From Botryllus schlosseri (Eukaryota), in the NCBI GenBank assembly GCA_051294905.1, contig CM119371.1:31312001-31376000 (forward strand): a DNA stretch of 64,000 bases, given 5' to 3'. A program made the translations under genes and the position numbers. Below the pieces are notes generated by a model, which worked only from the letters and a program-made list of their open reading frames with translations, made no database searches and was not told the DNA's origin. Below are positions 994-55,285 of the stretch, one piece after another; position 1 is the stretch's first letter, and every line of letters starts with the position of its first letter.

Positions 994-3900
994 CTTAACA
1001 TTTAGATACAGTGAATGTAAAGGGATAAGACTCTTATATAGTTCAATACCCAATCTATACCTACATGCAATCTGGTTTGCCATCACAGAAAGAAAATATT
1101 GGGATGCATTTCGCGCCATCAAAGCAGGAAAACTCATCGTCTTTGCATGACACACCTGTCAACACAAATGCACCAAAACCATATCATCATGTACTATAGT
1201 CATATTTGGTGACATAATTGTTGATATACAATGTTCTATCTAATTCTCTACTAGTTGCTGACGATTACCCCGGACGAGTGTCAGCCAAAAATATTCGGGT
1301 TCATTTCAATATGAATATACTATTCTATTATATGCTATGGTACAGGGGTCACCAACCTTTTTTGCAACCAAGAGCTACTTTTTGGTTACTGATTGAAGCG
1401 ACGGGTTACCATTTACTCCTGAAGTTTACCCGTGCCAGACTGAATGTCGGCTTCGATATTCATGGCACTTGGCAGGAATATTATCACATTGCGGTAAGAG
1501 AGTCATTCAAATCAAAACATATTATGTCAACTAACTAGCCAATAAGGATTTTAGGAAATCATGAATTCTTCGCACCATGTTACAACAACAGTGAACTCAA
1601 ATTTTAAAATAAATCTTGTCACGCTTTAGACTGGACGTCATGTTACCTGTTTCTGCATCAGCCAGTGGGATGCCTGGCATTGCACGTTATCAACTAGTGC
1701 GCTATACTCTGGTATGTAACTTGACACTGCAACTCTGAGTGAGTGTTCAAGATGTGCATTAGTCAGGCGTGTTCTGTGTTTGTTTTTGATGAAGTGCACG
1801 TGCGTAAAGGATGATTCAAAACGATAAGTTGAACTAAACAGGCACCAAAAGTACGCTGTAGCCTGGTGGGCTTTGAGGTGGAGGTCATTCGGCAGTGTTA
1901 CAATTTCAATCTCCAACTGTTCAGCATCCAGACATGACAGATTTCATTATACCGGACAGCAGCAACGATTACAGAAAGTTAGAGACATAGGTACTGAACT
2001 GCGTTGAGTACAAGAGAAACACGGTGTGTAAAAACACGCAATACGTAATTGACGTACAGATATAGAAAATCTGATAGTACTTCACGACTATCTGCTACCG
2101 AATTGTAATGTTTTTTACTACTTAGATATTGTCCTTGACGTCGAGCTACCATAACGGAGCCCTCCGCCATTTCAAGAAGACCGTCGATGGCATTCCTCAT
2201 GTCACCTGTATAGGCAGTGAGTCGTATCTTACGTCTTCGATATCTAGTGATTCTATTTCTTATTGTAATAGAGGATATTTGATATCATCATTGTAAGTGT
2301 TTATATATATATATGTATTGTCATTTTTAAGTTACATGTTAGTGTGATTTAAACAAGAATAGCTAAATCAATCAATTTATATATTTAAAATCTCACTGGT
2401 AATGATCTGACTAATATTGGTAAATGCTTCTATTCGATCTATTTTTGTAACAGGCTCGCGGGCTACTCATTTGGTTCTCGCGGGCTACCTGGGGCTCGCG
2501 GGCACCGCGTTGGTGTCCCCTGTTATAGTATATGAACAATGGTGTAGGCAGGCTACTTTTTGCTTGTTCAACGTGCCCACTTCCCAGTGTTGTCATAGAC
2601 TTTTCAACACAGAATTCCTCCAACGTGTGGTAAATGCATATGAAAGCTTCAGAATGATGGCAGCTATTGTGATACCTCATCAAACTAAACGTGGTCTCTC
2701 GTCAGTATAGCGAAGTACTTCTAATTTGTGGACTACTCAAGTATATTATGTGGCTTTTCACAGCGTGATGAGGTCGATACGTTTCAGATCACTTTCACTC
2801 ATACAGTTGCTTTGGAACGACAGGATCCCAAAGTGACCAATAGCTGCGAAAAATGCTCACGAAAAACTAATCGATGTCAAATTAACGATAGCAACAAATA
2901 ATTGTTCAACATTATGATAGACAGTTGCAGTGTTACATTCTGTCGAAACAGTGGTAACGAAGCCTACATCTCACCGTCGCAAAGTATTCCCGATAGCGGC
3001 TTACGACTCGCAGGTAACAAACAGACTAGTCGACCTTTTCCGGATCTCCAAGGCCCGCGACAAAAAGTAACATAGCGACTGTATGATGAATTGAAGTTCC
3101 TCAAAGGTGGTTCGTCCGACCCATCACTTAACATTAGAAAATCATCAGGTAATTGTGACTGGTTAGCATTTAGGTGTTTAAACTGTTTAGTGACGCCACC
3201 TCACATAAATCGCTTTCCCCCTGTCTTTTCTAAGTTTTGCTTGCACATACCAGGTATTGATGGAGTATTAGTAAGTCTCGAGAGTATCATATGCTTAGTG
3301 CCATCACTCATGCATTGTGACTACAGTGCAACGTCAACAGTGGAATTCTAATAGAACTGGGGTCATATTTCGGTTCAAAAAGCTCACTCATTTGAACGCA
3401 GTATTGTTGGGCTGCTAAGAGAATTCGCGGAGTCCAAGACGGGCTAGTAATCTCGCAGCATGTAGCTGCTGGCTAGGCATGTAGCAGTAAATGTAGAGAC
3501 TTAGAGACTCAATTCCTTTTTTTACAACCGTAGGAAAGCAATCTTCGAAGTAAAAAAATTCGAAAATCACCCTAATATTTTTCAATGTTTATGTTGAATT
3601 TCCTTTGCTGATGCCGCCTCATGCCAGTGAGTGGTGGGTAAAGTGCCTTTGAATGGTTTGTATCAAGTTGATGACGTTACTGTTGCATTGTTCCCAGTGT
3701 GGCACAAGGATTCATCAACTGGACTAGTTCTAAGAGGTCCCTGACAGGCCAGTCACGAAACTGTAACTATAAAATTATATTTTCTTCATAACCTCAGCTC
3801 TTATTTATGTCTTACGTCCTAATTTGGTCTTATTTTTTCTCTATGAAGTGGATTTTCATGCAACAACCGGTATACTAGATCGCAATATGAGGCCATGTCG

Positions 3901-24900: not shown

Positions 24901-27900
24901 GAGCATGACCTGCAATCACACAACATCAAAAGCGAAATACATTACATGCAGTCAGCGAATGATGCTTATTCAACCAATCAATGAGATTGATATCTCTGTC
25001 TGATGTAAAAAGTCTGGCAGGCATACGGCGTCAATCTTGGCTTCATATGTTTACTGTATCATCAAAACCAAATCCGTGTGATTGGGGTGTTAGTAATATC
25101 GGTATCAAGTACAGAAACCCGCTCACTATCAACGTATAGCAATACTAAGACGTCGAATACATTGTTCGGTCTGGCCTAGACCGTTAAGGCGCAAGCTTAT
25201 ATTCTTGTGCAATTCATCATCGAAATTGTTGGCAAAGCTACGGAAGATATTGTTTTCATGGGATAATTTTATTATTTGATTGCACGAGTTGATATATTTG
25301 GTGACGTTTAAAACGTCAATATGTACTCCAGCATTGCCGCATTATTTGGCCAGATTCTTCGCTAGGTATCGTGTACAATGTAGATTAATATAGGTCATTA
25401 CGTCAATGAAATATAGTGTAGGAATTAGCTACATGACGTATCGTGACGTCATGAGATTCACGTTCGCATTCACACGAACCTGAACTTTTCAGAGGTTCAC
25501 ACCATCCCTACTCTGTACTCTACTACGGTTACATTTGCTTCTAAATCACATTTCTGCAAAATTGAAGAACTCTGCAGACCGGATATTCTAGTAAACACAA
25601 CGAAATACACCGAATTTCCACTTGAACGGATGGAAGATTTATGCGCTGTTGTGGTGCTTGGTCTCGATTTCACGAACTTGCATAAACGAGTCATTTTCCA
25701 TATGGGCGGAGATAAAATAACCTTGGAACTCCCTCGAGATCAGAAATACAGCGTATGCGGGATTGCTCAAGCATGTGTCGAAGCGCCGCAAATTTTCAAA
25801 TTCATGACACCGAATTGCAAACCGATCGCTACTATATCCAGAAGATACAGCGAAGCTGAAGTTTCAAAACTTGAGAAGGAAGGCATCATCGAGCTGTCCT
25901 CATCGCCTTGGTGAGCACAGGTTCTGGACGTCAATGACGGTCGACACAACAAGCGCATGGTCATAGACTTTTCTCAGACGGTCAACAAGTAGCTAGCGAT
26001 GGTGCTAACCGCTGAAAGGTTCAGGGTCGTGTGAACGCGAACTTTTTTGAAAGGTTCTGTGTGAACGCGAACGTTAACCTCATGGCGTCACGTGACGTCA
26101 TATTGCTCATTCCAACCCTATATTTCAGTGAAGTGATGGTGTTATGTTCGTGTATTTACGTTGGTATCGTTTCACTCTATTTTGTATAGGACTAGTAATT
26201 AGCGCCAATCATTATTTCCTCGTGTGCTTTGCGTTGTATTTATACCCTGTGTTCTGTCATTTACTGTCTTTCGTTCAACTGCACTCTGCCTGTATTAAAG
26301 TTATTCTGCTGATAATATACTGATTTCGTATTGCAACCTCGTCGTATTGAGGTATTGTTCAAACAAGATCAAGAACATAACAATTGGTGTCAGAAGTCGG
26401 ATTCATAGTTATTTCTGCGACGAACACATATCATGGAATCGGGTATTTTGAAGCTTCTGGAGAAGCAGCAGGAAATGATGGCGGAACAACGCGCACAGCG
26501 TAAAGAAGATATGGAGCAGCAAAACGCTCGTCACAGAGAAGATTTGGCGCAACAACGCGCACAGCATGACGAAGCAATGGCGAAAGTGATGGCTGGGTTG
26601 GAACACCAAAAAAACCAACACAAAGAAGAGATGGCACAGTTAACGCAGAGGATGAGTCCCGGTTCGTCAACATCTGAAGCTACCGCTCCCAAGTTTGATT
26701 CGTTCGTAAAGTCAAAAGAGAAATGGGACCACTATCTGCAACGATTCAACCATCACCTTGCAATTTACGGCATTTCCAACATGGAGAAGAAAAGAGCGTG
26801 TCTACTCTCATGGTTCGGACCTGAAACGTACTCGCTCCTACGTAATATGTTTGGTGCCGCTGATGTCAGTGCGCAATCCTTCGACGCGTTGACTGAGAAG
26901 TTGTCTACACACTTCAAAGACTTCATTCATGTGCAAGCAGCCAGGTACGAATTTTACAATTGCAAAATGCAGCCGGGACAATCGTACGCCGATTGGATCG
27001 CTGCTCTACGCGGAATCTCCAAAGATTGCAACTTCATATGCTCAAGAGATGGCTGTGATCAGAGCTACGTTGATGAGCTAATGCGCGATCTCATTAATAA
27101 AGTAACGCCGCACGCGGATGTGAGACGGCATTGTCTAACACAAACCAATCCATCTCTCGACGACGTTCTCAAAGTAGCCGCAACATACGCGAGAACGCTG
27201 GAAACTGATAGGGTTATCCAGGGCGAAAGTAGCGGTAAAGACACTTCCATCGTCAACAAAATGACGGGAAGTTATCAGAAGGGGAAAAAACCTTCCAAAT
27301 CCAACCAAGGCAACTTCCCAGAAAGACTGAAATCCTGCAGCCGCTGTTTCATCGATCACCAGAGAAGAGACTGTCAATATCGACATTCAGTATGTCAGAA
27401 ATGTGGTCGTAAAGGTCATATCAAGCCTGCGTGCATGTCTACCAAGCCTAGTATCACGCAACAGGTCACATCCGTAAATTTCTGCTCAGTGCCACTCCTC
27501 TCCTTCGACATCGATCAACTATATCGACGCGTAGGAAACCAGCTCTGGATCAACTCCAGCATCAACGGCATTCCGCTGCCGACACAGTGGACACTGGTGC
27601 ACCCTCCGCCATGGTGGGATTGACTGGGTACAAAACTTTGGGCTCTCCGAAACTCTCAGCATACCATTGCTCTTTCGTAGCGTATGGCGACAAGCCACTG
27701 AAAGTGAAAGGTATTTGCACTGTAACCGTGCAGGTGGCAGACATGGGGTAATCGCGATTAGTAATCGTAATCGATTACGACGATTACAGCATTTTGAAGT
27801 AATCGTAATCGCAATAGATTACATTCGAAAAAAATCCGAAGTAATCGTAATCGTAATCGACTACTTCCCATATCTAATCGATTTTTTTGTGAAAGAACGA

Positions 27901-30900
27901 TTACTTTTTGTTTGTACAAGGACTGACATAAACTGAATATTCGTGAACAAGAATGAGATAATATACCACGTTAGCGATAGCACAACGTCTGTTTTCAAAC
28001 GCCACTGACTCATTATTACGTCAAGTATTAGCTCCGCTCGTCATTGCGTAAGAAGTATCCACACATCGTAAACAAACATGGGATGGACATTGTAGTGTGA
28101 TTGTAAGAACACCCCCCCCCCCGTGTTGTATATCAGGTTATCAATACACTACAAAAGCCCCTACCTCGCAGCAGGATATTGATCACCACTCTCCCTATAG
28201 TTTCAAATAGTAACTTATGTATTGATGTTTGGTTGTGCTTAGTCAAACGCAGTTTACCGTTGCTGCTTGACGAGCAGGTGGCCTACGTACGCACTACGCA
28301 CGTGCACCTGACGAAGATTCGTAATTTTGTACTCGTTGAATAAAACATTGCAGTTTCCACAACGAAGCATTACAAATAAACAGCTGCTGATATATATCAT
28401 AACCGAACCGTGCTTAGCCGTTTCTCGTAACAGCAGCTCGCAGTATATGTATTAAGTTGAAGGCAGAATTTTTATGTTCACTATATCTTATTCTCATATA
28501 ACTACTTGAAACGGGCGTCAATCGTTATTTCACAGTCCGTTACTTAGCATTTGGACGGATTGGACCTGCCGCCATAACCATCCGCTTATAGCCTGACATG
28601 TTAGCGTGGGTTGTAGCTAGAATCGGCAATTCCGCCAAAACAGCAATTCGTCCCCCTGTCCAATCGTTGGTCAATTTTCAAAACTGAATTTCGTCAATAA
28701 TATTGGCAATTGCATTATATTACTATTCATTTATAACCTCTCTGAGCCTCGAGTGTCAGATTTTCCTGTAGAGCTGGGGCAAGTAATTCATAATCATAGC
28801 ATCTGGTATGTTGTTATAATAATTACTTTATAGTATGTTGTTAATTCGCGACCTCCAGTCTGTTGCATGATAAGAAGATATTGTACTCGCCCAAACGTAG
28901 CAGACTAAAACAATATCTTTGTGAGACGCACACACAAATTGTCATGGCTTTACTCCTTTGTGGATGCGCCGGGTGGCATTTGCATTGTGGGCCCAGATTG
29001 GAAGGACAGGAGTTATTAGTCACGCCCACCCAGCGCGGCTAGTGACAATGGACGAATACCCTAAGTTTCGGCCAAGGTATATCTTTGGTATCACATCCCG
29101 TGGAGTTGCGTGTTGGCCGAAACTGCATATGTCTTTTGGTGTGTTGTGGGATCGTGGCGCGGTAATGACCGGCTCCGAAATGCCTGTTCTCATAAAATAG
29201 CCTATGCTTGTTTTTTCTTGAGGCAAAGAGGTATGCATTTCAAACCCAGCTATCTACTGGAGCAGGGGTCACCAACCGTTTTGAAACAACAAGCTACTTC
29301 TTGTGTAGTGTGTACTGATTATTGCGACGACCGACGGGTTTCCACTTATTCCCTCCGTTTATCCGTGTTCAGTTGGATTTCTTCACTTAGAGTAAGTCAA
29401 ACAGAGCACTGGGCCGGGTTTCCGCCCCTTACCAAGAACAAAAAACGGTCACTCGCCATGACTCACACCAGCTCCTCCGGGCTCAGTTGCGTTGCTGCAG
29501 TGCGCGCCGAAGCGCCCATCTCCGCGTCGAGACTCGGGAATATTAACTATAGATTCCCGTTGAGCCGCCGCGTGCGGGCGAAGACAAGCAATGCCCCGAG
29601 CGACTGCGTTCGTATCTTCTTTGGGGTCGGCCGACCCATGTTCAACTGCTGCTCATATGAAACCAGCTTCAACTTTCAAATTTCTCATTTGGATATTTGC
29701 TACAGCGACCGCGGGCGACTCATTTGGTCCGCGTTGATGATCCCTGTACTAGAGACATTTGAATCGCAAGGCTCGAAGAACATTTTCAAGAATTAATTAA
29801 ATTCTCGAAAATACTCTATAATTTATGTTGGTTTACGAAATACTTTCGAGTCCCCTTCGAGCACGCTCCCCACTCTATTAAGGAATTTGGGGTGCGGCAG
29901 GTAAAGACCTGACAATAATGCAAATCGTTGGATGCGATAAATCATCCACTATAAAGTTGTGCGATTGGTATATTATGACGTAATAAGCAAATGACGCACG
30001 ATGTATGAAGAGAGTTGATATCTCATTAAGCCTTTTCATCGCAATCCTGGTATTGTCTTCCAATATATCATTTAAGATTATAGTCCTAAGCAAAACAAAT
30101 GTAATCGTGAGTAATCGTGATTACTTTTCCAATGTAATCGTAATCGTAATCGACTACTTCCTGATTTTGCTGTAATCGTAATCGTAATCGTAATCGCGTG
30201 ATTCCGAAGTAATCGTAATCGCAATCGATTACATTCAGAAAGTAATCACCCCATGTCTGGCAGGTGGGTTCTGAAATTCGAGTTGGCATAAAATTGGTTG
30301 TTGACGAACACCGTGGGCAAAACATTTTTGGTCTCGATTGGAGCGATGCTTTCTCCATGACCGCTAAGGGGGCGTCTGCTTTGGATGCAATTTCCTCGCA
30401 GATGGTCAAATCGCAATCATGTAATACTATTGTCATTTCTGATTCGAACGACAAATTAGTATCTTTTCAGTCCAAATTTCCCTCCGTTTTCTCTAATGTG
30501 TTGGGACGATGCACCAAGACAAAGGTGACAATTCACTTGAAACCTAATGCCAAGCATGTTTTCAACAAGCCACGTCCTTTGCCTTTCGCAAGGCAAATCG
30601 CTGTTCAATCCGAATTGAATAGATTAGTCAATCAAGGTATTCTCGAAACAAGCAATTACAGTGATTGGGCAGCACCAATTGTTGCCGTCACTAAATCTAA
30701 TGGATCAGTACGCATTTGTGGTGACTTCAAAGCATTGAAGCAACAAATTCAGATAGATCAACATCCCTTGCCCTCCTTGGATGAAATCCTTCAAGTTACA
30801 GGGTGGCTGTATTTTCACGAAAATTGATCTTCCCGATGCTTATTTTCAGCTAGAATTAGATGATGATGCGAAGAATTTGTGTGTCATCAACACGCAATTC

Positions 30901-33900
30901 GGTCTATTCCGTTATCGACGTATGTGTTTCGGAGTCGCATCTAGTCCCGCAAATTTTCAACGCTGTATTGATGCCATGATCACCGGCTTACCCGGTGTTA
31001 CTAGTTTTATCGATGACATAATCGTTACTGGCATTGATGAACGCGATCATTTTCGCAACTTATCGCTACTATTTGAGCGCCTCACCGAATACGGTTTCAC
31101 CGTCAACTTCGCGAAATGCGAATTTTTCAAAAGTAGTATCGAGTATCTTGGTCATATAATCGACAAGGACGGCAAACGCCCGTCTCACAAATCTGTTGAA
31201 GCAATCAAACAGTTGCCTAAACCTCGGGATGTTCGCCAGCTACAGGCAATCCTGGGCAAAGTCAATTATTATCGCGCGTTCATTCCTAATTTTACGAATA
31301 AAGCCGCTGCCTTGTACCGCCTTCTTCAAAAATACGCGCAATTCATTTTGAATACGGACTGTGACGCAGCTTTTCGCATTCTCAAAAACGACGTAATCGA
31401 CGCTATGCAGTTAGCTCATTATGATGTAAACAAGCAGCTACTTTTGTACACTGATGCTTGTCAATTCGGAATCGGTGCTGTCCTCTCAATCGAGCACAAT
31501 GGTGAAGAGAGACCGATCGCGCACGCATCGAAAGCACTTTCCGATTAGCAAAAATCCTACTCTCAAATAGAGAAGGAAGCTCTGTCAATCATTTACGGAG
31601 TCACTAAATTTCGTCAATTCTTGTATGGTAGAAATTTACGCTCGTAACGGACCACAAACCCCTTTTAGCTATTTTCTCGCCGGACAAAAAAATTCCCGTG
31701 ATTTCAGCGCAACGCTTACAGCGATGGGCGCTAACGCTCATGGCTTACCAATACGATATTCGCTATAAACCGACTAATCAGCACGGAAACGCCAACGGTT
31801 TATCTCGCCTACCAAAGGGTCCAGACCCTGAGTTTGACGAACTGGAAATTCGTGAAAACGCGGAGATCGTTCACGCTATTAATATGGCATTCGATGGCTT
31901 GCCGTTAACTCGCAATGAAATTCGCGACGCGACGCTGAAGGACAAAACCATGAAACTAGTAAAATTATCTGTCACTCATGGTAATTGGAATCCAAAGACG
32001 CACATTGTTGATTTTTCATGGTTTTCGACTCGCAAACATTCGCTTTCTCTGCACGAAGACATAATCATGCTCAATATTGATGGTTTTCAGCGCGTAGTAA
32101 TTCCGCAGTCACTTCGCTCGCGAGTCTTATCATTGTTGCACGAAGGACATTGGGGTAGCGCGAAAATGAAGCAGATGGCTCGACGTTACATCGCATGACC
32201 TTGTATTAATCGCGACATTGAAAATCTCGTTAAGAGTTGCGACGCTTGCCGTAAGGTAATGAAAGCGCCTGATCGTCAGTATCGCGAATGGCCTAAAACT
32301 TCTGAAAGCTTTGAACGAATTCACTTGGATTTCGCAGGTCCAGTAAACAATAAAATCTTTCTTGTCATCGTCGATGCGCATTCGTTAAAGTAATGAATGT
32401 CGGTTCTACCACAACCTTGTGTGTGGTCAACGCTTTGAGGGAAGTCTTTTCTATCGAAGGCTTGCCCGTAACAATTGTCACGGATGGCGGGCCGCAATTC
32501 ACATCGAATGAATTCGATACGTTTTGCTCTAATTTGGCAATCAGCCACATCGTATCACCGTCTTTTCACCCTACCTCGAACGGGGAAGCGGAGAGTTTCG
32601 TCCAGAATTTGAAAGCTGGATTAATAAAAATTGCGACGGGGGAAAAGATTACAACTTCGCGCTCCAAACACTTCTCGCTACTTACCGATGTGCACCGCAC
32701 TCGGGCATAGACTGGAAAACGCCTGCCGAGATTTTACATGGTCGACAGCCGCGCAATTTGTTAAGTTTGTGCTCGCCCTTTGATAAATCGAAACCCGTTA
32801 CGCCTAGACAATCAGTCCTTCATTTCGAGATTGGTTCCTCGGTTTACGCTCGCAGTTACCGAAGCGGGCCAAAGTGGGTTGCTGGCGTGGTGACGGAAAT
32901 ACTGGGACGTGTTGTGTACATTATAAACACAGATCATGGGTATTGGAGGAGGCACAAAAACCAACTCCAACCACGCTTGATTTCAGCAGGCAATGATACA
33001 GCCACACAGGAAGTTGCTCAGCCTCAACAGTCCCAAGCTGAGCAACCATTGGTCAGTAATAGGGCACAACGTCCTGCAGATAGTCCTGCTCGTACGTCGG
33101 GTAGACGTTACCCCGTTAGGAATAGAAAACAAACAGATTTCTATCGGCCGACGTAAATCACCTTGTACCAATTACCTTACAGGGGAGGACTGTTATGTTC
33201 GTGTATTTACGTTGGTATCGTTTCACCCTATTTTGTATAGGACTAGTAATTAGCGCCAATCATTATTTCCTCGTGTGCTTTGCGTTGTATTTATACCCTG
33301 TGTTCTGTCATTTACTGTCTTTCGTTCAACTGCACTCTGAATCGTGTCGCCTGTATTAAAGTTATTTTGCTGATAATATACTGATTTCGTATTGCAACCT
33401 CGTCGTATTGAGGTATTGTTCAAACAAGATCAAAAACATAACAGATGGCCTATATTAATTATTGTACAGTGTGTACACCGTGTGTACACGATACGGAGCG
33501 ACGACTCGGGCCACATCATCCACAATGCTGATGTACATATTGACGTTTTAAACATCGCCAGATATATCAACTGCGGCAATCAAATGATATATTAATCCCA
33601 TAAAATCAATATCTTCCGTTGCTTTGACAACAATTTCGACGAGGATTTGCAAGGAAATATAGGCTTACGCCTTAGCGATCTAGGCCAGGTAGGACAATGT
33701 ACGTCGTCTGAGTATTGCTATACGTTGATAGTGAGCGGGTTTCTGTACTTGATACCTATATTACCAACACTACGTTGATATTGAGCAGAGTGTATAACGG
33801 GTTTCTATACAGGTCTGCATGCGGCCGATATTACTCCATTAACAAGTTATACAGCAGTAGCCAACACCCCAATCGCACAGACTTGTTTTTTATGATACAA

Positions 33901-48900: not shown

Positions 48901-51900
48901 AATTTTGAACGATGCATCTGTAACGTCGTCGTCAATATTAATAATGCATGGAAATATGAATTGCTGGGCTTTTGACACCGAGCAACATTTTCTCTAAGAT
49001 CAGGTTATATGTATAACTTCAGAAGAAACTATCGTGGTATCATTTTAAGCTTCCACGATTCGTTACAACAACTGTTCTTCGAAAAATATGACACATCGAT
49101 CTTCCATAACAATACCGTTCCAGTAGTAATTGCGTTCATAATGAAAGATGTCGCGGGCCGCAAAATAATAGTCTGCGGGCCGCGGGTTGAGAACCCCTGT
49201 CCTAGATGGTAACTTCGGGACTGAGTAGTAGCTGTGATTGTCCAGTATTGTCACTAGCATAGGCAGTCAGTCAACAGTCTCCATTCCAGTGTCATTTGGG
49301 ATTGGTTTGCCATCCCCGTGCAAAATGAATGGAAACTGTGGGTCTAGCTAATATTTAATTTCTTCGGAGATGATTCTACTATTAACTAATAAAGAGCGTG
49401 AAATTATTACCTTGAAAAACGTTCGATAGAAGACTTTATTCAACTTCACGACGAAGAAATTGACAATTATTTTAAGAAACTCGAGTCTTTCAGATGTTTT
49501 TCTTGAACATCAGGATTCTCAGAGGAAAAAGCAACCTAGTTTCATTGCCGCAGAAACTTTTATCAGCACATTGGTTGTCACCAGCTACAAGGCTTAATAT
49601 TCTATTGCATTAGTTGAGGAGTTTTCTGGCCATATCACAAAGGACAAGGAGCAACTGCAATTTGCATTTGTAGTTTTTGCTGACCAACGCGAAAAAGCTC
49701 CCTAACACTCTGAAACTGGCCTAACTGGGCAACGGCAATTGCTATAAGTCATATTGACATCCCAGCCGGAATCCAGGAATCCAGGCTTAAACGTTGGTCA
49801 GAGAGCAGCTACAGAAGTGACTATATGTGCTTTACACTGCAAATGGATAGAATTTCGGATCCATTGAGCCACCTCCAAACATTAATGGAAATCAATTAAA
49901 TGTCACACAGTTTATTTTTGTAGTCAAAAGTAACATTTTGGCAGGGTCAGACCAACAACTTTCCAAAATTCGTTTTCTAAGGACCACCCTATTGCCCATC
50001 TATAACCTCCTAACATTTTCGTCTACGATTCGATACATTTGATTTTGTTGCTCCATAATCTCGCAAAATGTCCACTAGAGGGTAACATCGCTCGCATTCA
50101 GAATAACGACATAGGGCTTGGCAAAATAATGACGCTATTACGAGGAAACGCCTACCGGCAATCGGCTTTTCCATCGCAAAATTCCGCGTTCATCACACAC
50201 TCAGATCCATCGAAGCAAGCAAAGGTGTCTTTAGAACAGCGCGGACCTGGAATATATGCATCAATGACTCGAGTCTACTTCTATGCGGGTTTTAATTATG
50301 TAGTCGTTCAATTGCTAACGCAAGTCATAGGAATAGGACGTTGTATATTTTGTCCTCGATGTTTTTGCGACATATGCACGAACTCATGATACAAACACAC
50401 ACAATAAGTGTGCATAATGCATATGCATACCCGCCATGCTATTCCTGTATTCTTGTGAGTATTACTAACCAGATTTTTGGTCTTACCCGGCCGGGGATCG
50501 AATCAACGACCTACCGATCAAGAAGTCGGACGCTCTACCATTACGCAATCTTGTCTATCCATAACATGGGAACTGCGTGGACAGTCGAAGACAATTTGTA
50601 AGCATGATATGATGTAATAGGGGCGCAAACTTGAGATTGAACGACAGCAAAAATCTTTATCCCTTACTTTTGCAAAATCCTTCTTTATCTTCTGTAAACT
50701 GAGTTGTGACTTCGCAAAGTCGATTGTCTTTGCGACATATGATGTTATCTGTGTTGTTTGAAACGCTGCTGTCGCGATATAGCTCGTCTGAGCCGTCTCT
50801 GAACGATTAAAGAAAAATAGAAAAAATATTGATACGCCACTTTCGTATATTATGACGTAGCCAGAACGGCATTGGTGGTGTTTTATAGTTGTCATGAATT
50901 CATATTAATTCTACATTTAGAAATATAATTCAGTTGTTGTTGTTGCTGCGGCGCATGACTTGTATGTCTGATAAAGAGATTTTTGCCAATTTTTCGCATT
51001 CAGACCACGGCTTCGTAAGCAGAATAGACCGTATCTTTATATATCGTGATCGATCCGGGCATGGCATAGCTTGATCAGACAGAGAGAGAGAGAGAGAGAA
51101 AGTACTTTAGTTTCTCCCGCGTGCGGTGCTGCCACAGTATATGGTGGCTCTGTGCTTCGTGTTATCATTTGGTTGAAGTACCGTGCATACCCTACATACC
51201 ATGCCTTTTCTGCGCCAATCATGTTCATGCTTGGAAACGGCAGTTGTTTTGATCGCGAGTGGCTGTGTTCTGCGTCCTGGTTTCGGGTACGGTATCATTG
51301 TTGAACTACAGTGCCTTCTTGGGACTTAATTTATCGAACATCATTCACGACAATAAGAAAACTTCGACACGACTATAGTTATGGAAAGTCCGTATGAAAT
51401 ATTATATTCACAGTACTTGATCGATTCAGGCATATCGATGAGCCAAATGGGCTTCGTGCGACTTTGATCACGTAACTGGTTGCGCATAGCAAACCGATCG
51501 ACTGGTTAACAAATTACTCTCTTTTTGCATCTGTGCTGTCGGTAACAGTTATAATACTGAAACCTAAGTTTCGTTTTAGGGTTGCAAACGTATAAAAATC
51601 TCGCAGCGAAAGTCACGTGAGACTTGAATATGCTATATGTGTCCGCTAATAGCTACGTGTCGCATTACTTCCGTTGCAAAGTATGGATAGGTATACACGG
51701 GATGTAATGACTCGATTAATAATTTTCTGAGAGTGAATTTATGAACTTTACCAGAAGCACAAGCTTGCCCACCGGAGTATATTTGCTGCGAGCAATCACT
51801 CACTTGGTCGAAGTCGTGCAAATTAGACTAATGATTGATATACCCACTGACAGTTCTTTATCCCGTCGCAAAAGAAAGCCTTTGGCACGCACTGCGATCC

Positions 51901-54900
51901 GTCCGCACATGGAAATTCGTGGTATCGACACGTCGAACCTGAAGAAATATACACAGCATTGATGAAATCCCCCACCTGCGCGATCTTACGTAGTTGCATC
52001 AAATGCAAGTACGAAATGGATGCCGTACATCGGCAATGCAGCCTTAATATATTTCGAACTAATAATTTTTTGGAACGTTTGTGGTTAATTCGATCACAAG
52101 AGCAAGATGTAAACGTAAGTGGTACAGGGAAGGTGCGAACCTCCGAAAGGGTCTGGTTCATTAGAACGTGAACCTTTTTGAATGGTTCCATGTGAACGCG
52201 AACGAGAACATTAACCTATGACGTCACGTGGCGTCATATTAATTTTTCAACGCTACACTTCCGTATGGACAGTACACGATACCTAGCGGCGACTCAGACC
52301 ACATTCTGCCAAAGTACTCAAGTACATGGTGACTTTTAGTCATCACCAAATGTATCAACTACTGAAATAATAATACGATAAAATCAATATCTTCCTTCCC
52401 TTTGCCAACAATTTTGCCGAGGACTCGCAAGGCAATGTAAGCTTACGCCTGAACAATCAGGACCACACCTGACAATGTATAGGCGTCAAACTATTGCTAT
52501 TAATTGATATTGATCAGAGTGACAATCTGGTTTCTATACCGACGGATATTACGTCAAAAAAAAGTTGTACATTGCCCAACACCCCCATCGGCCGGGTTGT
52601 TGTAATTCCTGATACAATAAATATATTAAATCAAAGTAGATTCTGTACGCTTTTTCCGTTTTTTTTTTTGGTTGAACATATTATACATCAATTTCGTTGA
52701 TGTCACTAATTGATTGAATAAGCACAATTCGCTGATTAACTTTACGACGATCTGCGCTGAACTAGTATTGTTGTTTGTGATATTCATGGTGTCTTTCGAC
52801 TACATTGTTCCTAAACCAGGCCGACATTCTTTAACATGAGTCCATATTTAACAGCATGCAGAAGGCACGTTCCATTTCTAGGCTTTTTTATGACAACGCC
52901 TACGCGGATCATATGACGAGGAGGAGCAAAGATAAACCCCCAACACGTCGTATGGGATTCTCTAGACGGACTTGGAACCCCAACCTATTGGTGCTTTGGT
53001 GGATACCCCACGAAGTATGTCTCATTCTTGATGTTGTGTGATTGCGGACCAACTCCAATGCAGAGAGTAACTAAATATTCACAAGCGGGAAGATGAACAT
53101 TTTGAGAAAAGTTTTCTAACAAAGCAAATACAAATTTTGAAATTGGCCAAGTGCAGGGTAGTTTGGTGCTGAATTTCTTTTCATGCTGCAAGCGCCATAG
53201 AGAGAATTTAAAAATGCAAATAATTTGAAAAAGAATGTTGGATGAAGTGAAAAATTGTGATAGATGAAACGGGTTCCCGGTGCAGAACCTACCAGGGTTC
53301 GTTTGTGAAATCGAACATCCAAATTTCTGAGGTTCACACAAAGCTCACGTTCACACTATCCCTTGTAAGTGGTGTTCTTATGCAAATGCGTAGCACGTTA
53401 ATGAGCCGTGCTATAAGTCGAAATCTCGGTATTACTAACACATTTTCATCGTGATGTAAAATGATGATATATGTTTCAAAACCATGAATAAGAAACAACC
53501 CGCGAACGGATCCTGACTACACCCCATTCGAATTTACCCATACAACTACAAATCCCATATAAACATTGGAATCAAATAGATCTGATTCTCTTTATAAATT
53601 TTTCATAATCTCCCCGAAGTACATTACATGAATTCCAAATCATTCAAAGTGATTTATACATATGGCGAACGTCCGTTTAGAAGTCATCATATTATTATTC
53701 ATTATACGATTGCCACAAACCTGTTGGCCTACATCTTCGGTAGGGTTATATCAAGATATCGTATGTCACTCATGCATCGCGGCAATAGTAAACATATGAT
53801 CAGACTCACCATCACAAAGCTCGTTCTCTTGTGCACGCAGCTGAGATGGCAATATGCAGAGCCTCGGAGTAAATGAATCCTTCCCTCTGCGGCATACAGT
53901 CGTATCATCGCTATAGTTGGCATTGACAGTCCAATAAAGTTCATCTGATCCATCGCTGTTGAAGAAAAGCATATCATTTTCACCACCATGTGCTGTCATA
54001 GCATAGTTCGGGGTTGTACAACTCGTGGCCCGCGATCGCAAAACTTGTCGAAGGTAATATGCGTGCATACGCCGCACGCTTTCGCTTTAGTTGATCACGA
54101 TTGTTGCTGTTCTCAGCGCGCCTTTGCGGTAAAGTACGACTGAAAAGGCAATCGCGTAATTGCAAGAAAAAGTTTCTTAAAAGAAACAACTGAAAGATCA
54201 AGATCGAACATCAAGGGATAAATATTATTTCATGGGGCGAGGTGAATGTTAGGTTGGAACATCGCACTAATTCGTTTCGTCACACCGTACATAGTGCATT
54301 GTGTATTGCTTTGTCTTAGAAGGTAAAAATAATATAAACGACTATTTTATATGGTGAGATGTCGTACTTGATTTGTAACGGTTCCGAAATCGTCAGATCG
54401 TGGACCTTGCTAATACAGGAAGACATATGTACGGCCCGCCGTCTCGGTAACCTCTATCGAAACCGCTTGTCAAATAGGTTGCACAGTAGACACCCATGGT
54501 GTGGTTCAGGGGTCACCAACGCGATGCCCGCGAGCTACCGAGCCCATGAGAACCAAATTGGTCGGCCGCAGTAGCAGTAGCAAATATTCAAATGTAAGAA
54601 TTGAAAGACAAAGCGGAGAAGGGTTTCATATGAGCAGCAGTTTAACATGGGTAATTCTACCCTAAGGGGCATACGAATTCAGTTTTCGATCGGGTCGTTG
54701 CTCTACTTCGCCGACGCGGAGGTTTTAACGGGAATCTACCTAATATTCCCTATAGTCTCGACGCGGAGATTGGCGCTTCGGCGCGCAGTGCGGAAACGCA
54801 ACTGAGCCGGGAGACGCTGGTGTAAGTCCCGGTGAATGAGAGTTTCTGTTTTCGGTAAGGGATGGAAACCTGGCCCGCTGCTCTGAATGTCTAATTGAAG

Positions 54901-55285
54901 AAACCCAACTGACCACGGACAAACGGCGAGAGTAACTGGTTGCCCTGTCGCAATAATCAGTACCCGTGAAGTAGCACTTGGTTTCAAAGAGGTTGAGGAC
55001 CTCCAGTATATTTGGTAACGCTCACCTGCAATCAGTTGAGCCATCGCAATATTTCTGCATCGGAATACACCTTGCCTCGTCCGTGCACGCAAATTGGTTG
55101 TCTGGACATATCAAGCCTGTATCGAAGGTATTGTAATGCTCACCATGACAAAAATAAACAAGATTTAATTGAAGACTAACCTTCACAGCAAGTGATTAAT
55201 ACCATGGCTGCAGTTCCAATGTAAACAAGAATCATCATCCATTTTGTAGTTGAGATTTGGATCTTTTGTGCACGTGCCATTTATG
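854..55285 (-). CDS. Multi-exon gene (partial, envelope coordinates): predicted extracellular protein with 8 tandem extended LDLa-like modules
   Basis: 17 exons traced by hand, all with AG/GT boundaries and compatible phases. A exons are phase 1->2 (91 nt), B exons phase 2->1. The spliced frame has no stop. Start and stop exons not identified. Confidence 0.9.
1065..1155 (-). CDS. Module 8 exon A (LDLa): GVSCKDDEFSCFDGAKCIPIFSFCDGKPDCI
   Basis: gacag acceptor, gtagg donor, 91 nt; 71-nt intron to exon B. Confidence 0.9.
1343..2522 (-). mobile_element. Charlie/GTF2IRD2-type hAT deletion derivative
   Basis: TIRs CAGGGGTCACCAAC...GTTGGTGTCCCCTG; degenerate TSD ctatggta/ttatagta; ORF 1638..1916 (FSSTYRFESSF...KNKHRTRLTNAHL) resembles the hAT C-terminal dimerisation region. 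Confidence 0.85.
2975..3126 (-). CDS. Module 7 exon B: DGSDEPPLRNFNSSYSRYVTFCRGPWRSGKGRLVCLLPASRKPLSGILCD
   Basis: ttaag acceptor, gtgag donor, 152 nt. Confidence 0.9.
4304..4394 (-). CDS. Module 7 exon A (LDLa): GSSCETDEFLCSDGSQCIPNWMFCNGNPDCS
   Basis: tcaag acceptor, gtaag donor, 91 nt; 3 nt differences from module 6 exon A. Confidence 0.9.
4466..5258 (+). mobile_element. Non-autonomous hAT element (same family as 14393-17058)
   Basis: TIRs CAGGGCGATT...AATCGCCCTC; relic PTTVAVERSFSILGKLL near 4818-4870; absent from the paralogous site near 9205. Confidence 0.8.
5510..5670 (-). CDS. Module 6 exon B: DGSDEPPLRNSSYDYVQKSTFCRRRARYVSTDHVRSICELPPNLVSLQDDICD
   Basis: tttag acceptor, gtagg donor, 161 nt. 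Confidence 0.9.
5770..7701 (+). mobile_element. Degenerate Chapaev3-like (CMC) DNA transposon
   Basis: TIRs CACTGGTCGA/TCGACCATTG, 3-bp TSD TAA, empty site at ~3907. Relic motifs WRNP..KDCYFC, LKAVLSHN, KENYEN, YPCFMCEWDS, EGVFVGPQIR. Confidence 0.85.
8008..8966. mobile_element. TIR-bounded non-autonomous DNA element (possibly PIF/Harbinger)
   Basis: TIRs GGTGAGATGTGGTACTGATGGATC / GATCCATCGGTACCACATCTCCCC; absent from the paralogous site near 4215. Confidence 0.75.
9054..9144 (-). CDS. Module 6 exon A (LDLa): GSSCKTDEFPCSDGSQCIPNWMFCNGNPDCS
   Basis: tcaag acceptor, gtaag donor, 91 nt. Confidence 0.9.
9463..9617 (-). CDS. Module 5 exon B: DGSDEPPLKNSSYAYAPNATFCRQRDHSTVHVRSICELPSNLVTLQDDICD
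   Basis: ttcag acceptor, gtagg donor, 155 nt. Confidence 0.9.
10451..11584. mobile_element. Charlie-like hAT MITE
   Basis: TIR CAGGGGTGGGCAAACT, perfect 8-bp TSD TCTTAGAT. Confidence 0.9.
11969..12284. mobile_element. hAT MITE of the TAG(G/C)GTTACCATA family
   Basis: TIRs tagcgctaccata/tatggtaacgcta with GTCCTC subterminal repeats; inverted relative of 39726-40148. Confidence 0.7.
12369..12459 (-). CDS. Module 5 exon A (LDLa): DPTCLKTEYPCSDGSACIARGNFCNGKKDCR
   Basis: ttcag acceptor, gtatg donor, 91 nt. Confidence 0.9.
14977..16805 (-). mobile_element. hATm-like element nested in 14393-17058
   Basis: TIRs TAGGGTTATGACTA/TAGTCGTAACCCTA, perfect TSD ATGTCCAC. Minus-strand relic ICDTVASVDTGRQNGVV...PCQHHII near 16180-16300. 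Confidence 0.85.
15356..15778. mobile_element. hAT MITE nested in 14977-16805
   Basis: TIR TAGAGCCCGACCGAT, TSD atatattc/gtatattc, CCGATA subterminal repeats. Confidence 0.85.
20074..20219 (-). CDS. Module 4 exon B: DGSDELYYNHSIARSNNLTACSGRGGYYGDIKNICMVTTEAAEILRCR
   Basis: tttag acceptor, gtaaa donor, 146 nt; separated from its exon A by a ~20-kb TE-filled intron. Confidence 0.88.
20252..20518. mobile_element. hAT MITE with AAGTA repeats
   Basis: TIRs CACAGGTGGTCA/TGACCACCTCTG, perfect TSD TACGGAAT. Confidence 0.85.
21899..23518. mobile_element. CMC/EnSpm-like non-autonomous element inserted in the outer 5' LTR
   Basis: TIRs CCCAGGTAGCACGCC/GGCGTGCTAGCTGGG, 2-bp TSD TT; the 3' LTR shows the empty site. 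Confidence 0.8.
24572..25510. mobile_element. hAT MITE of the TAGGGATGGTGTGAAC family, copy 1
   Basis: TIR TAGGGATGGTGTGAAC, TSD ctccgtac/ctctgtac. Confidence 0.88.
26385..26402 (+). promoter_or_regulatory. Primer-binding site, tRNA-Leu type
   Basis: TGGTGTCAGAAGTCGGAT, 2 nt after the 5' LTR; close to the complement of a tRNA-Leu 3' end as I recall it. Confidence 0.75.
26433..27623 (+). CDS. gag: Gag of the inner Gypsy, frameshifted at the protease DTGA motif
   Basis: 396-aa ORF; coiled-coil N-terminus, W..YLQRF motif, knuckles CSRCFIDHQRRDC and CQKCGRKGHIKPAC. Confidence 0.9.
   Translation: MESGILKLLEKQQEMMAEQRAQRKEDMEQQNARHREDLAQQRAQHDEAMAKVMAGLEHQKNQHKEEMAQLTQRMSPGSSTSEATAPKFDSFVKSKEKWDHYLQRFNHHLAIYGISNMEKKRACLLSWFGPETYSLLRNMFGAADVSAQSFDALTEKLSTHFKDFIHVQAARYEFYNCKMQPGQSYADWIAALRGISKDCNFICSRDGCDQSYVDELMRDLINKVTPHADVRRHCLTQTNPSLDDVLKVAATYARTLETDRVIQGESSGKDTSIVNKMTGSYQKGKKPSKSNQGNFPERLKSCSRCFIDHQRRDCQYRHSVCQKCGRKGHIKPACMSTKPSITQQVTSVNFCSVPLLSFDIDQLYRRVGNQLWINSSINGIPLPTQWTLVHPPPWWD
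27738..30259. mobile_element. hAT-type element with GTAATC subterminal arrays, inserted in the inner protease
   Basis: TIR CAGACATGGGGT, perfect TSD GCAGGTGG. Confidence 0.9.
29263..29746 (-). mobile_element. Charlie-like MITE carrying a 28S rDNA-derived fragment (copy 1)
   Basis: TIRs CAGGGGTCACCAAC/GTTGATGATCCCTG, TSD tactggag/tactagag. Interior GACCCATGTTCAACTGCTGCTCATATGAAACC...ATATTTGCTAC is antisense LSU rRNA. Confidence 0.85.
30268..33156 (+). pseudogene. pol: pol of the inner Gypsy (PR end, RT, RNase H, integrase) with stops and frameshifts
   Basis: WAAPIV, VRICGDFK, FIDDI, YTDAC, LHEGHWG, IVTDGGPQF, SNGEAE spread across ORFs 30264-33156. Confidence 0.93.
34068..34653. mobile_element. 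hAT MITE with GACTCGAGTC arrays
   Basis: TIRs CAGGGTTGTAA/TTACAACTCTG, perfect TSD CACGGCAG. Confidence 0.9.
35895..37792. mobile_element. hAT-type element inserted in the outer RNase H
   Basis: TIRs TAGGGTAAGTTTTTGCA/TGCAAAAAAAATTGCCCTA, perfect TSD CTGATCAG. pol reads FTLVTDQ|RSVAFMF across it. Confidence 0.9.
36491..37497. mobile_element. hAT MITE with GACTTGACTCGAGTC arrays, nested in 35895-37792
   Basis: TIRs CAGTGTTGGGAT/ATCCCATCACTG, perfect TSD GGATGAGG; about three 37-bp tandem units at 37305-37437. Confidence 0.9.
39726..40148. mobile_element. hAT MITE of the TAGG(A/G)TTACCATA family
   Basis: TIRs taggattaccata/tatggtaacctta, GAGGACA repeats. Confidence 0.75.
40185..40275 (-). 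CDS. Module 4 exon A (LDLa): GSTCGYAEFACSDGSQCLSNSMFCDGIVQCN
   Basis: tatag acceptor, gtgcg donor, 91 nt. Confidence 0.88.
40605..41520. mobile_element. Charlie-like hAT MITE
   Basis: TIR CAGTGGTCGGG, perfect TSD GTGTAGAT; a related interrupted copy starts near 56867. Confidence 0.88.
42219..42391 (-). CDS. Module 3 exon B: DKSDEPPLRYSNISYDPNTKFCHGGGHDSYYRYQPPVVTWICVLEPSLEPYQNSLCF
   Basis: tttag acceptor, gtgag donor, 173 nt. Confidence 0.9.
42533..42958. mobile_element. Charlie-like hAT MITE
   Basis: TIR CAGTGGTTCCCAAC, TSD ctgtaagc/atgtaacc. Confidence 0.8.
44553..45830 (+). mobile_element. hAT-like element with a GC-rich transposase relic
   Basis: TIRs CAGGC(T/C)TGTTTATTT, TSD tgtattgc/tatattgc. 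Relic frames FRRQRNLIQ*MGSARPKFVVARLLSMKRVASWL and ATFEADISKIKWE...SLEGILQAK. Confidence 0.8.
46565..47293. mobile_element. Foldback-like element with ~205-bp inverted arms
   Basis: 46565-46768 is the reverse complement of about 47091-47293; flanked by AT on both sides. Confidence 0.8.
48021..49199 (-). mobile_element. Charlie-type hAT derivative
   Basis: TIR CAGGGGTTCTCAA, perfect TSD TCCTAGAT, minus-strand relic SLALDESTD near 48655-48682. Confidence 0.88.
50156..50246 (-). CDS. Module 3 exon A (LDLa): SPRCSKDTFACFDGSECVMNAEFCDGKADCR
   Basis: tccag acceptor, gtagg donor, 91 nt. Confidence 0.9.
50474..50550 (-). mobile_element. tRNA-derived SINE head fragment
   Basis: Minus strand TGGTAGAGCGTCC...GGTCGTTGATTCGATCCCCGGCCGGGT has A-box-like and B-box-like motifs. 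Confidence 0.6.
50668..50798 (-). CDS. Module 2 exon B: DGSDELYRDSSVSNNTDNIICRKDNRLCEVTTQFTEDKEGFCK
   Basis: ttcag acceptor, gtaag donor, 131 nt; not in the ORF track. Confidence 0.9.
51848..51938 (-). CDS. Module 2 exon A (LDLa): GSTCRYHEFPCADGSQCVPKAFFCDGIKNCQ
   Basis: ttcag acceptor, gtggg donor, 91 nt. Confidence 0.9.
52125..53364. mobile_element. Older copy 3 of the TAGGGATGGTGTGAAC MITE family
   Basis: Colinear with 25994-26139 plus 33449-34983; flanked by GTAAGTGGT on both sides. Confidence 0.78.
53810..53955 (-). CDS. Module 1 exon B: DGSDELYWTVNANYSDDTTVCRRGKDSFTPRLCILPSQLRAQENELCD
   Basis: aacag acceptor, gtgag donor, 146 nt; lies inside ORF 53766..54077. Confidence 0.9.
54507..55005 (+). 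mobile_element. Charlie-like MITE carrying a 28S rDNA-derived fragment (copy 2)
   Basis: Left TIR CAGGGGTCACCAAC, degenerate right TIR. 54571-54862 reads GTAGCAAATATTCAAA...GGAGAAGGGTTTCATATGAGCAGCAGTTTAACATGGGT...GCGGAGATTGGCGC...CAGTGCGGAAACGC, an LSU rRNA core segment. Confidence 0.85.
55026..55116 (-). CDS. Module 1 exon A (LDLa): GLICPDNQFACTDEARCIPMQKYCDGSTDCS
   Basis: tacag acceptor, gtgag donor, 91 nt, LDLa Cys1-5 spacing. Confidence 0.9.
55203..55285 (-). CDS. Upstream non-repeat Cys-rich exon INGTCTKDPNLNYKMDDDSCLHWNCSH(G)
   Basis: ccttag acceptor, gtatt donor, 83 nt, phase 2->1. An 86-nt intron joins it in frame to module 1 exon A. Three Cys and an NGT sequon. Confidence 0.65.

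What the first reader, a model, noticed from the sequence alone, without database searches (positions are those of the whole stretch)
54507..55005. hAT MITE family that has captured an internal 28S rRNA segment
Seen: two dispersed copies (54507-55005 on plus, 29263-29746 on minus) share CAGGGGTCACCAAC-type ends and about 290 bp of interior matching the conserved LSU rRNA stretch GTAGCAAATATTCAAA...GGAGAAGGGTT.CAT.TGA.CAGCAGTT.AACATGGGT (recognised from memory of eukaryotic 28S). The element at 1343-2522 has the same termini and subtermini but a transposase relic inside. Inference: one gap-repair capture of rDNA by a DNA transposon, followed by amplification. rRNA-derived SINEs are known. A cut-and-paste MITE with 28S cargo is less familiar to me. 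This copy would appear as antisense-rRNA sequence in the host pre-mRNA, about 20 nt from a splice donor.
Basis: partly seen in the sequence, partly recalled or inferred. Interest (0 to 1): 0.7.

Follow-up and report, generated by a model that had tools for sequence, protein, structure and literature searches.

The report
hAT mini-transposon carrying 28S rRNA fragment
A small cut-and-paste transposon in this marine animal once picked up about 300 bases from the middle of the 28S ribosomal RNA gene and then spread that piece to dozens or more places in the genome; the cargo looks like a harmless passenger, but this combination is missing from the review and survey we could read.

Summary
Two copies (54507-55005 +, 29263-29746 -) consist of hAT ends around about 295 nt of 28S rRNA sequence (Rfam LSU_rRNA_eukarya positions ~1457-1720; E 1.1e-6 and 1.2e-5, both under the gathering score). 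Element 1343-2522 shares both ends, carries a GTF2IRD2/ZBED5-type hAT transposase C-terminus and has no rRNA match. Contigs from a DNA run holding this locus show a genome-wide family: 38-56 distinct contigs per site carry the same letters across the 5' junction, and copy B has the majority letter at 28 of 30 listed sites. A run labelled as a second organism also holds it. Cargo and ends have diverged equally (81% vs 78%, p=0.48), so the cargo looks neutral. Best reading: one capture of host-lineage 28S by template switching, then ordinary hAT transposition, i.e. a multicopy Pack-TIR. DNA versus RNA template is undecided. New here: copy B is itself nested in a younger 2.5-kb element inside a young LTR retrotransposon. 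No effect on the host gene was shown. New variant of a known kind; moderate interest.

The parts
54507..55005 (+). Copy A: whole non-autonomous hAT element with 28S cargo (499 nt), in an intron of a minus-strand LDLa-repeat gene
54507..54573 (+). Copy A left TIR (54507-54520) and left subterminal region, 80% like the left end of element E
54574..54870 (+). Copy A 28S-derived cargo, Rfam LSU_rRNA_eukarya model ~1457-1720, sense relative to the parent transposase; 3' edge approximate
54871..55005 (+). Copy A right subterminal region and decayed right TIR (54992-55005, 9 of 14)
54499..54506 (+). Left target-site copy of A; its partner is 55006-55013 (5 of 8 match, weak)
29263..29746 (-). Copy B (484 nt): TIR 12 of 14, 27-nt deletion in the left subterminal region, 28S cargo about 29706-29416
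29255..29262 (-). Target-site duplication of B; partner 29747-29754 (7 of 8 match)
27739..30259 (.). Younger 2521-nt TIR element that contains copy B: first 12 terminal letters perfectly inverted, perfect 8-nt TSD, GTAATC subterminal repeats
26139..33443 (+). Young LTR retrotransposon (LTRs 240 of 243 identical) interrupted by the 2521-nt element downstream of its gag-like ORF
1343..2522 (-). Element E: cargo-free relative with the same ends (1180 nt; TIR 13 of 14; TSD 6 of 8)
1665..1931 (-). Relic of the hAT transposase C-terminal dimerisation region, 45% identical to residues 510-617 of a GTF2IRD2-like protein, with a 19-codon gap
55026..55130 (-). Predicted LDLa exon of the host gene (5' edge approximate); GT donor at 55025-55024, predicted acceptor at 53956, intron 1070 nt

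Best explanation
This is an old family of non-autonomous hAT elements (GTF2IRD2/ZBED5-type, Buster-like ends) of about 500 nt. Its founder arose once, when the interior of a hAT element was replaced by about 295 nt copied from the middle of the host lineage's 28S gene, most likely by template switching to rDNA during repair of a gap or stalled fork. Because both ends with their transposase-binding regions were kept, transposase supplied in trans then cut and pasted it to many sites, each with its own 8-nt duplication. The cargo is a passenger that decays at the same rate as the ends. Shown: anatomy, shared ends with a transposase-bearing relative, shared 5' breakpoint, two different insertion sites, multicopy status. 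Inferred: host origin of the cargo (strong), single capture (strong), DNA template and template switching (moderate), neutrality (moderate, two copies only).
For: TIRs, TSDs and ends shared with E. E's relic is hAT: ESM Atlas 0.96 to Dimer_Tnp_hAT clusters; 417 proteins at E<=0.001; of 7 hits scanned 5 carry PF05699 and 7 of 7 PF18658; named hits are GTF2IRD2-like or ZBED5-like. LSU match and 78% over 63 nt to natural 28S in L016/L017; natural 28S upstream of the match start differs from A and B, which follow E there. In run X2 (single-copy flank depth 51) 698 contigs lie on the 1501-nt stretch; 41, 38, 47, 56 and 52 contigs carry the same non-A letters at 54559, 54560, 54565, 54570 and 54573, summed depth 72-237 times the flank. 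B has the majority letter at 28 of 30 listed sites. 45 contigs share the loose-end motif TAACGGGAAT with A and B where Rfam and 17 other contigs have GAAAGGGAAT. 28 contigs run on from 54845 with a consensus that follows B up to the 3' junction. X7 (second organism label) record 9 lies from 54507 to 54641, from the TIR across the junction. Host origin: a homogeneous form (3 contigs, summed depth about 10200) and 27 of 27 X10 RNA reads share 54668C, 54672A, 54673G, and the reads' loose end matches B at 18 of 20 letters in a region where the Rfam consensus is variable (compared by eye). Cargo 230/285 vs ends 136/175 identical between A and B, p=0.48; folding z -0.30 and -0.54.
Against: No whole genome was held, so full-length copies with both TIRs and TSDs were seen only twice; contig counts overcount through overlaps and undercount through the 80% cut-off. 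Some copies may ride inside the younger 2521-nt element, as B does. A's right TIR (9/14) and TSD (5/8) are weak. Junction microsimilarity is not significant once a shift is allowed, and E is only about 80% like the true parent. The host 28S sequence itself was not obtained; calling the high-depth form 'rDNA' is my inference, reads like human DNA are filtered out by the tool, and 168 of the difference rows were not shown. The 3' breakpoint is less well covered than the 5'.
Confidence: 0.75

Rival explanations
1. Same family history, but the founder was made from RNA: a 28S rRNA fragment or its cDNA patched the break in the hAT element (RNA-templated repair or a LINE-made cDNA without a tail).
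For: The cargo lies wholly within the mature rRNA, the most abundant cellular RNA. An earlier, unchecked note on this genome reports a cDNA of a mature tRNA inside a hAT element (e1-7857085), and others report LINEs that target 5S genes.
Against: No poly(A) (longest A run 3 in A, 4 in B) and no duplication flanking the cargo was seen in the junction alignments. An internal 28S piece has no feature that separates RNA from DNA, and rDNA is also a high-copy template (about 200 times the flank depth). The surveyed Pack-TIRs are explained by DNA template switching (PMC8277862, passages).
Confidence: 0.15
2. A 28S fragment was inserted into a ready-made short MITE of about 200 nt (left and right ends joined), rather than replacing the interior of a longer element.
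For: The hAT-derived parts are short (about 67 and 135 nt) and a cargo-free mini version was not excluded, because no genome was held.
Against: No such mini version in the window (nhmmer and BLAST find only A, B and E above noise); no duplication at the cargo edges; E continues with different sequence at both junctions.
Confidence: 0.06
3. The cargo is kept because it helps the element or the host (for example small antisense RNAs, nucleolar pairing, or escape from silencing by looking like rDNA).
For: The family reached at least dozens of copies, against 3-5 for the multicopy Pack-TIRs described in frogs (PMC8277862 passages), and some RNA reads of family type exist (X14: 4 reads with a B-like loose end at 54754; X10: reads with hAT left-end letters at 54551).
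Against: Cargo is no better conserved than the ends; conserved 28S core 79% vs variable part 74% between A and B; many broken helix pairs in the cmscan alignments; no unusual folding; no Pol III B-box pattern found (pattern recalled). The window holds many other hAT elements (19 distinct hAT-like ends; 5 elements with TSD >=6/8), so high copy number needs no special cause.
Confidence: 0.04

Closest known systems
Multicopy Pack-TIRs of animals, e.g. Pack-hAT-N8_XT of Xenopus tropicalis (Tan et al. 2021, PMC8277862; abstract, passages, one methods section and a supplement search seen)
   Same: hAT ends around about 290 nt of host sequence, several insertion sites with distinct TSDs, origin by template switching followed by transposition.
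   Different: Cargo here is rRNA coding sequence, copy number is at least dozens (3-5 there), and the family is old. 'rRNA' and 'ribosomal' occur 0 times in that paper's main text and rRNA, 28S, rDNA, LSU 0 times in 12 supplementary files, but its pipeline required a unique parent hit at >=90% identity, which would exclude rDNA cargo by design.
Pokey and mPok of Daphnia (Elliott et al. 2013, PMC3849761; passages seen)
   Same: DNA transposon that carries rDNA-derived sequence.
   Different: piggyBac with TTAA targets, inserts into 28S genes, cargo comes from IGS and ITS2 and evolves in concert with rDNA. Here: hAT, 8-nt TSD, dispersed sites, cargo from the 28S coding region and decaying.
SINE28 of mammals (Longo et al. 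2015, PMC4994717; abstract only)
   Same: Dispersed repeat made from 28S sequence.
   Different: Retroposon from the 3' end of 28S, Pol III transcribed, repeatedly re-derived. Here the piece is from the middle of 28S, is bounded by TIRs, has no A tail and appears to have one origin.
Non-autonomous hAT elements of the Charlie/SPIN/Buster type (clade names recalled; GTF2IRD2 and ZBED5 labels)
   Same: CAG-starting 14-nt TIRs, 8-nt TSDs, ends shared with a transposase-bearing relative.
   Different: Interior is captured 28S, not a deletion product of the parent.

Membership tests
Non-autonomous hAT element (MITE-like) | Short terminal inverted repeats | tested here: met
   B 12/14, E 13/14; A decayed at 9/14
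Non-autonomous hAT element (MITE-like) | 8-nt target-site duplication | tested here: met
   B 7/8 (chance 0.06%), E 6/8 (0.5%); A 5/8 (3.2%) is inconclusive alone
Non-autonomous hAT element (MITE-like) | Ends shared with an element that encodes a hAT transposase | tested here: met
   A and B ends align to E; E relic is a hAT C-terminus
Non-autonomous hAT element (MITE-like) | No transposase of its own | tested here: met
   tblastn of 8 hAT proteins on the window gives no hit in A or B
Non-autonomous hAT element (MITE-like) | Many dispersed copies of uniform length | tested here: inconclusive
   Multicopy shown by 38-56 contigs per site at the 5' junction; length uniformity seen for only 2 copies (499 and 484 nt)
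Pack-TIR (Tan et al. 2021) | Host sequence >100 nt between the two ends of one TIR element | tested here: met
   about 295 nt of LSU-like sequence
Pack-TIR (Tan et al. 2021) | Identifiable parent locus in the host genome | tested here: inconclusive
   A homogeneous high-depth form shared with RNA reads is inferred to be host rDNA; no assembled rDNA was held. The paper's operational filter (unique hit, >=90% identity) could not be applied and a multicopy parent would fail it
Pack-TIR (Tan et al. 2021) | Microhomology at a breakpoint (common, not obligatory) | tested here: inconclusive
   8/13 at the 5' junction against a non-host 28S; 3 of 340 positions in register, 23 of 340 with a 3-nt shift
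Pack-TIR (Tan et al. 2021) | Multicopy type: distinct TSDs at different sites | tested here: met
   A and B have different flanks and target sequences
SINE28 | [quoted passage not shown] | tested here: not met
   model ~1457-1720 of 3401
SINE28 | Retroposon hallmarks (A tail, no TIRs) | tested here: not met
   TIRs present; longest A run 3-4
SINE28 | Pol III transcription | not testable with these tools
   No B-box pattern found (pattern recalled); not a functional test
Pokey/mPok | piggyBac ends and TTAA target | tested here: not met
   CAG ends and 8-nt TSD
Pokey/mPok | Cargo from IGS/ITS2, element inserted in 28S genes | tested here: not met
   Cargo is 28S coding sequence; flanks are an intron and another transposon
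Rfam LSU_rRNA_eukarya (a real rRNA gene) | Score at or above gathering threshold 50 bits, full-length gene | tested here: not met
   31.6-35.6 bits, under a tenth of the model

The most novel reading that the evidence does not exclude
The founder was made by RNA-templated repair of a hAT break with a 28S rRNA fragment, and this genome's hAT elements repeatedly pick up abundant structural RNAs (28S here, a mature tRNA in an earlier unchecked note), so that cut-and-paste elements act as dispersers of RNA-derived sequence; the family consensus would also be a datable fossil of the lineage's older 28S, since it differs from the inferred present rDNA at 3 listed sites in 54659-54694.
Probability: 0.15. 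Interest if true: 0.65.

Novelty: new variant of a known kind. Interest (0 to 1): 0.45.

Why it matters
It extends the short list of transposons that carry rDNA: the 2024 review's table (PMC10946416, section 11 read whole) lists one DNA transposon (Pokey, spacer cargo) and one 28S case (the retroposon SINE28), and no DNA transposon with rRNA coding sequence. It is a multicopy Pack-TIR far more amplified than the four animal cases in Tan et al. Practically, such a family scatters decayed 28S pieces that can mislead rRNA annotation, rDNA copy counts, 28S FISH and read filtering, and its consensus keeps a record of an older host 28S. It does not open a new mechanism unless an RNA template can be shown.

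Tried and rejected
No whole genome was held, so no direct copy count. Pattern scans for the TIR-plus-28S junction and for a metazoan-type 28S motif pair in metagenome contigs found 0 and 0 stretches; a family motif in viral contigs found 0. A 28S motif in genome contigs gave 15 loci, none of which aligned to A or B at E<=1e-3 (3 of the 15 were also scanned with Rfam and had no hit). A second motif in viral contigs gave 3 loci, 2 of which reach the LSU gathering score, but they are distant and diverge after 63 nt, so no tree with host 28S could be built. No RNA holder listed for 50500-60400. In the two RNA runs laid, only 50 and 16 reads fitted, none 99% or more alike, none on the flanking exons: this says nothing for or against expression or splicing of this locus. 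Pfam alone did not recognise E's relic (0 families); the atlas and phmmer did. The search for related loci with the relic gave 1 weak locus, not used. The cmscan extension of B to model 1888 was rejected as hAT right end. Structure retention rejected. The idea that the high-depth homogeneous form is B amplified inside the 2521-nt element was rejected because B has A, T, A where that form has C, A, G. Literature: 10 searches; four returned 0 papers and none of the listings showed a DNA transposon with 28S coding cargo; PMC4494074, PMC3272025 and PMC11513049 (passages) were irrelevant on this point. Repbase and Dfam could not be searched, and most subscription papers are outside the library. Earlier-finding searches by words, sequence and relatives found no report of this family.

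Full report
Observation. The two copies are real. A (54507-55005, +) and B (29746-29263, -) are 73.8% identical over 474 columns. A matches Rfam LSU_rRNA_eukarya from 54574 (35.6 bits, E 1.1e-6 on 901 nt; not among the 3 hits of the whole-window scan). B matches from 29703 (33.2 bits, E 3.5e-4 on the whole window; 31.6 bits, E 1.2e-5 on 801 nt). All are under the gathering score of 50, as expected of a decayed fragment. The confident alignment covers model ~1457-1720 of 3401, about 295 nt. Natural 28S from loci L016/L017 aligns to A at 49 of 63 letters and differs from A and B upstream of the match start, where A and B follow element E.

The ends are hAT. TIR matches are 12/14 (B), 13/14 (E) and 9/14 (A); TSD matches are 7/8, 6/8 and 5/8, with chance rates 0.06%, 0.5% and 3.2%. 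E (2522-1343, -) shares the left 65 nt at 80% and the right 89 nt at 74% with A; local alignment scores of A and B ends against E are 89, 50, 98 and 99 against shuffle maxima of 34, 35, 37 and 45 (300 shuffles each). E has no LSU match. Its frame 1943-1641 had no Pfam hit alone, but scores 0.96 to Dimer_Tnp_hAT clusters in the ESM Atlas and finds 417 proteins at E<=0.001. Of 7 of those scanned, 5 carry PF05699 and all 7 the Spin-doc zinc finger PF18658; named ones are GTF2IRD2-like or ZBED5-like. tblastn places residues 510-617 of one at 1931-1665 (45%, E 8e-23) and finds nothing in A or B. The 28S cargo is in the same sense as the parent transposase.

It is a genome-wide family. No genome was held, so I laid 4 of the 24 listed runs on 53850-55350 at 80% likeness. 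In DNA run X2 the single-copy flank has depth 51 and 698 contigs were laid. Summed depth is 79 times the flank at 54513-54563 and 284 times at 54564-54614. At 54559, 54560, 54565, 54570 and 54573, just before the 28S start, 41, 38, 47, 56 and 52 contigs carry the same letter different from A; these letters are not 28S and are B's letters. Over the 30 family-type rows I took from the table (I left out 10 shown rows that were minority or rDNA-type letters; 168 further rows were not shown by the tool), B has the majority letter at 28. The contigs are mostly not copies of B: depth per contig is near one to four single copies and their loose-end consensus at 54754 differs from B's. Forty-five contigs share with A and B the motif TAACGGGAAT where the Rfam consensus and 17 other contigs have GAAAGGGAAT, a shared derived change that points to one founder. 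At the 3' side 28 contigs run on from 54845 with a consensus that follows B up to the junction; right-end depth is 12-33 times the flank. These counts overcount by unitig overlap and undercount by the 80% cut-off against a decayed copy, so I state only 'dozens at least'. Run X7, labelled as another organism, holds the same letters (10-23 contigs at the junction sites) and one contig that lies from the TIR at 54507 to 54641, while it has no depth on the flanks. The family therefore seems older than that split, with the caution that X7 is shallow and its label coded.

Origin of the cargo. At 54668, 54672 and 54673 a second, homogeneous form (3-5 contigs, summed depth about 10200, 200 times the flank) has C, A, G, as do 27 of 27 RNA reads of X10; the family has A, T, A. 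I infer that this form is the host's rDNA. The loose end of those reads matches B at 18 of 20 letters in a stretch where the Rfam consensus is variable (by eye), which favours capture from the host lineage over a foreign 28S. This is inference: the tool drops human-like reads, so most rRNA reads are missing, and no host rDNA unit was obtained. Earlier notes call the organism a sea squirt; I did not test that.

Mechanism. Most likely the interior of a hAT element was replaced in one event by template switching to rDNA, and the product was then moved by transposase in trans. This is the route proposed for multicopy Pack-TIRs (PMC8277862, passages). The junction evidence is thin: 8 of 13 letters alike at the 5' junction between E and a non-host 28S, reached by 3 of 340 positions in register and 23 of 340 with a 3-nt shift. 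There is no A tail. An RNA or cDNA template is not excluded, since the piece lies wholly in mature rRNA. The cargo looks neutral: A and B are identical at 230 of 285 cargo columns and 136 of 175 end columns (p=0.48), and the conserved core (69/87) is little better kept than the variable part (42/57); folding z-scores are -0.30 and -0.54. Two copies give low power.

Context. A lies in a predicted 1070-nt intron of a minus-strand gene with many LDLa exons, 20 nt from a GT donor, so pre-mRNA would hold the cargo in antisense; no consequence was shown. B is not in plain host DNA. It sits, with its own 7/8 TSD, inside a 2521-nt element (27739-30259) whose first 12 terminal letters are perfectly inverted and whose 8-nt TSD is perfect; that element interrupts an LTR retrotransposon with LTRs identical at 240 of 243. 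So the old 28S element jumped into another transposon and has since moved as its passenger, which may add to the copy count.

Comparison with what is known. The review PMC10946416 (outline, passages and section 11 read whole) lists Pokey/mPok as the only DNA transposon with rDNA-derived sequence (spacer) and SINE28 as the only 28S case. Pokey is piggyBac with IGS and ITS2 cargo (PMC3849761, passages); SINE28 is a Pol III retroposon from the 3' end (PMC4994717, abstract). Both memberships fail here. The best fit is a multicopy Pack-TIR such as Pack-hAT-N8_XT (291 nt of a host UTR, three TSDs); that survey found 4 multicopy cases and does not mention rRNA in text or 12 supplements, but its filter would have excluded a multicopy parent. 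Ten literature searches showed no precedent in their listings; Repbase, Dfam and most subscription papers could not be searched, so an unpublished consensus entry is quite possible.

Verdict. Real, correctly read by the first stage, a new variant of a known kind. Interest 0.45: an unusual and well-amplified cargo with practical consequences for rDNA annotation, but an ordinary mechanism and no sign of function.

Noticed in passing
window 27739-30259: A 2521-nt TIR element with CAGACATGGGG ends, perfect 8-nt TSD and GTAATC subterminal repeats; it carries copy B and interrupts a young LTR retrotransposon. Its family was not identified.
   Followed up: partly
window 26139-33443: LTR retrotransposon with LTRs identical at 240 of 243, a 404-codon gag-like frame and broken pol frames.
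   Followed up: partly
window 900-55130, minus strand: A long gene with at least 7 LDLa exons, each split before the DGSDE motif, in tandemly duplicated exon pairs. Depth of about 6 times the flank over 55023-55124 in X2 suggests several paralogous copies.
   Followed up: partly
window 55010-55315: X2 record 8 (1265 nt, depth 51, 38 differences) starts to align at 55010, just outside copy A; it may be an allele or paralogue without the insertion, but its other part was not shown.
   Followed up: no
window 42533-42958, 48021-49199, 59631-60913: Three more hAT-like elements with CAG ends and TSD matches of 6/8, 8/8 and 8/8; the window is rich in such ends.
   Followed up: no
window 34127-37470: Arrays of TGACTCGAGTC-type repeats at two ends of a probable further TIR element.
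   Followed up: no
L016 and L017, around 560: Two IMG/VR 'viral' contigs hold eukaryotic LSU rRNA sequence whose likeness to A stops abruptly about 60 nt after the anchor motif, possibly at an intron or insertion.
   Followed up: no
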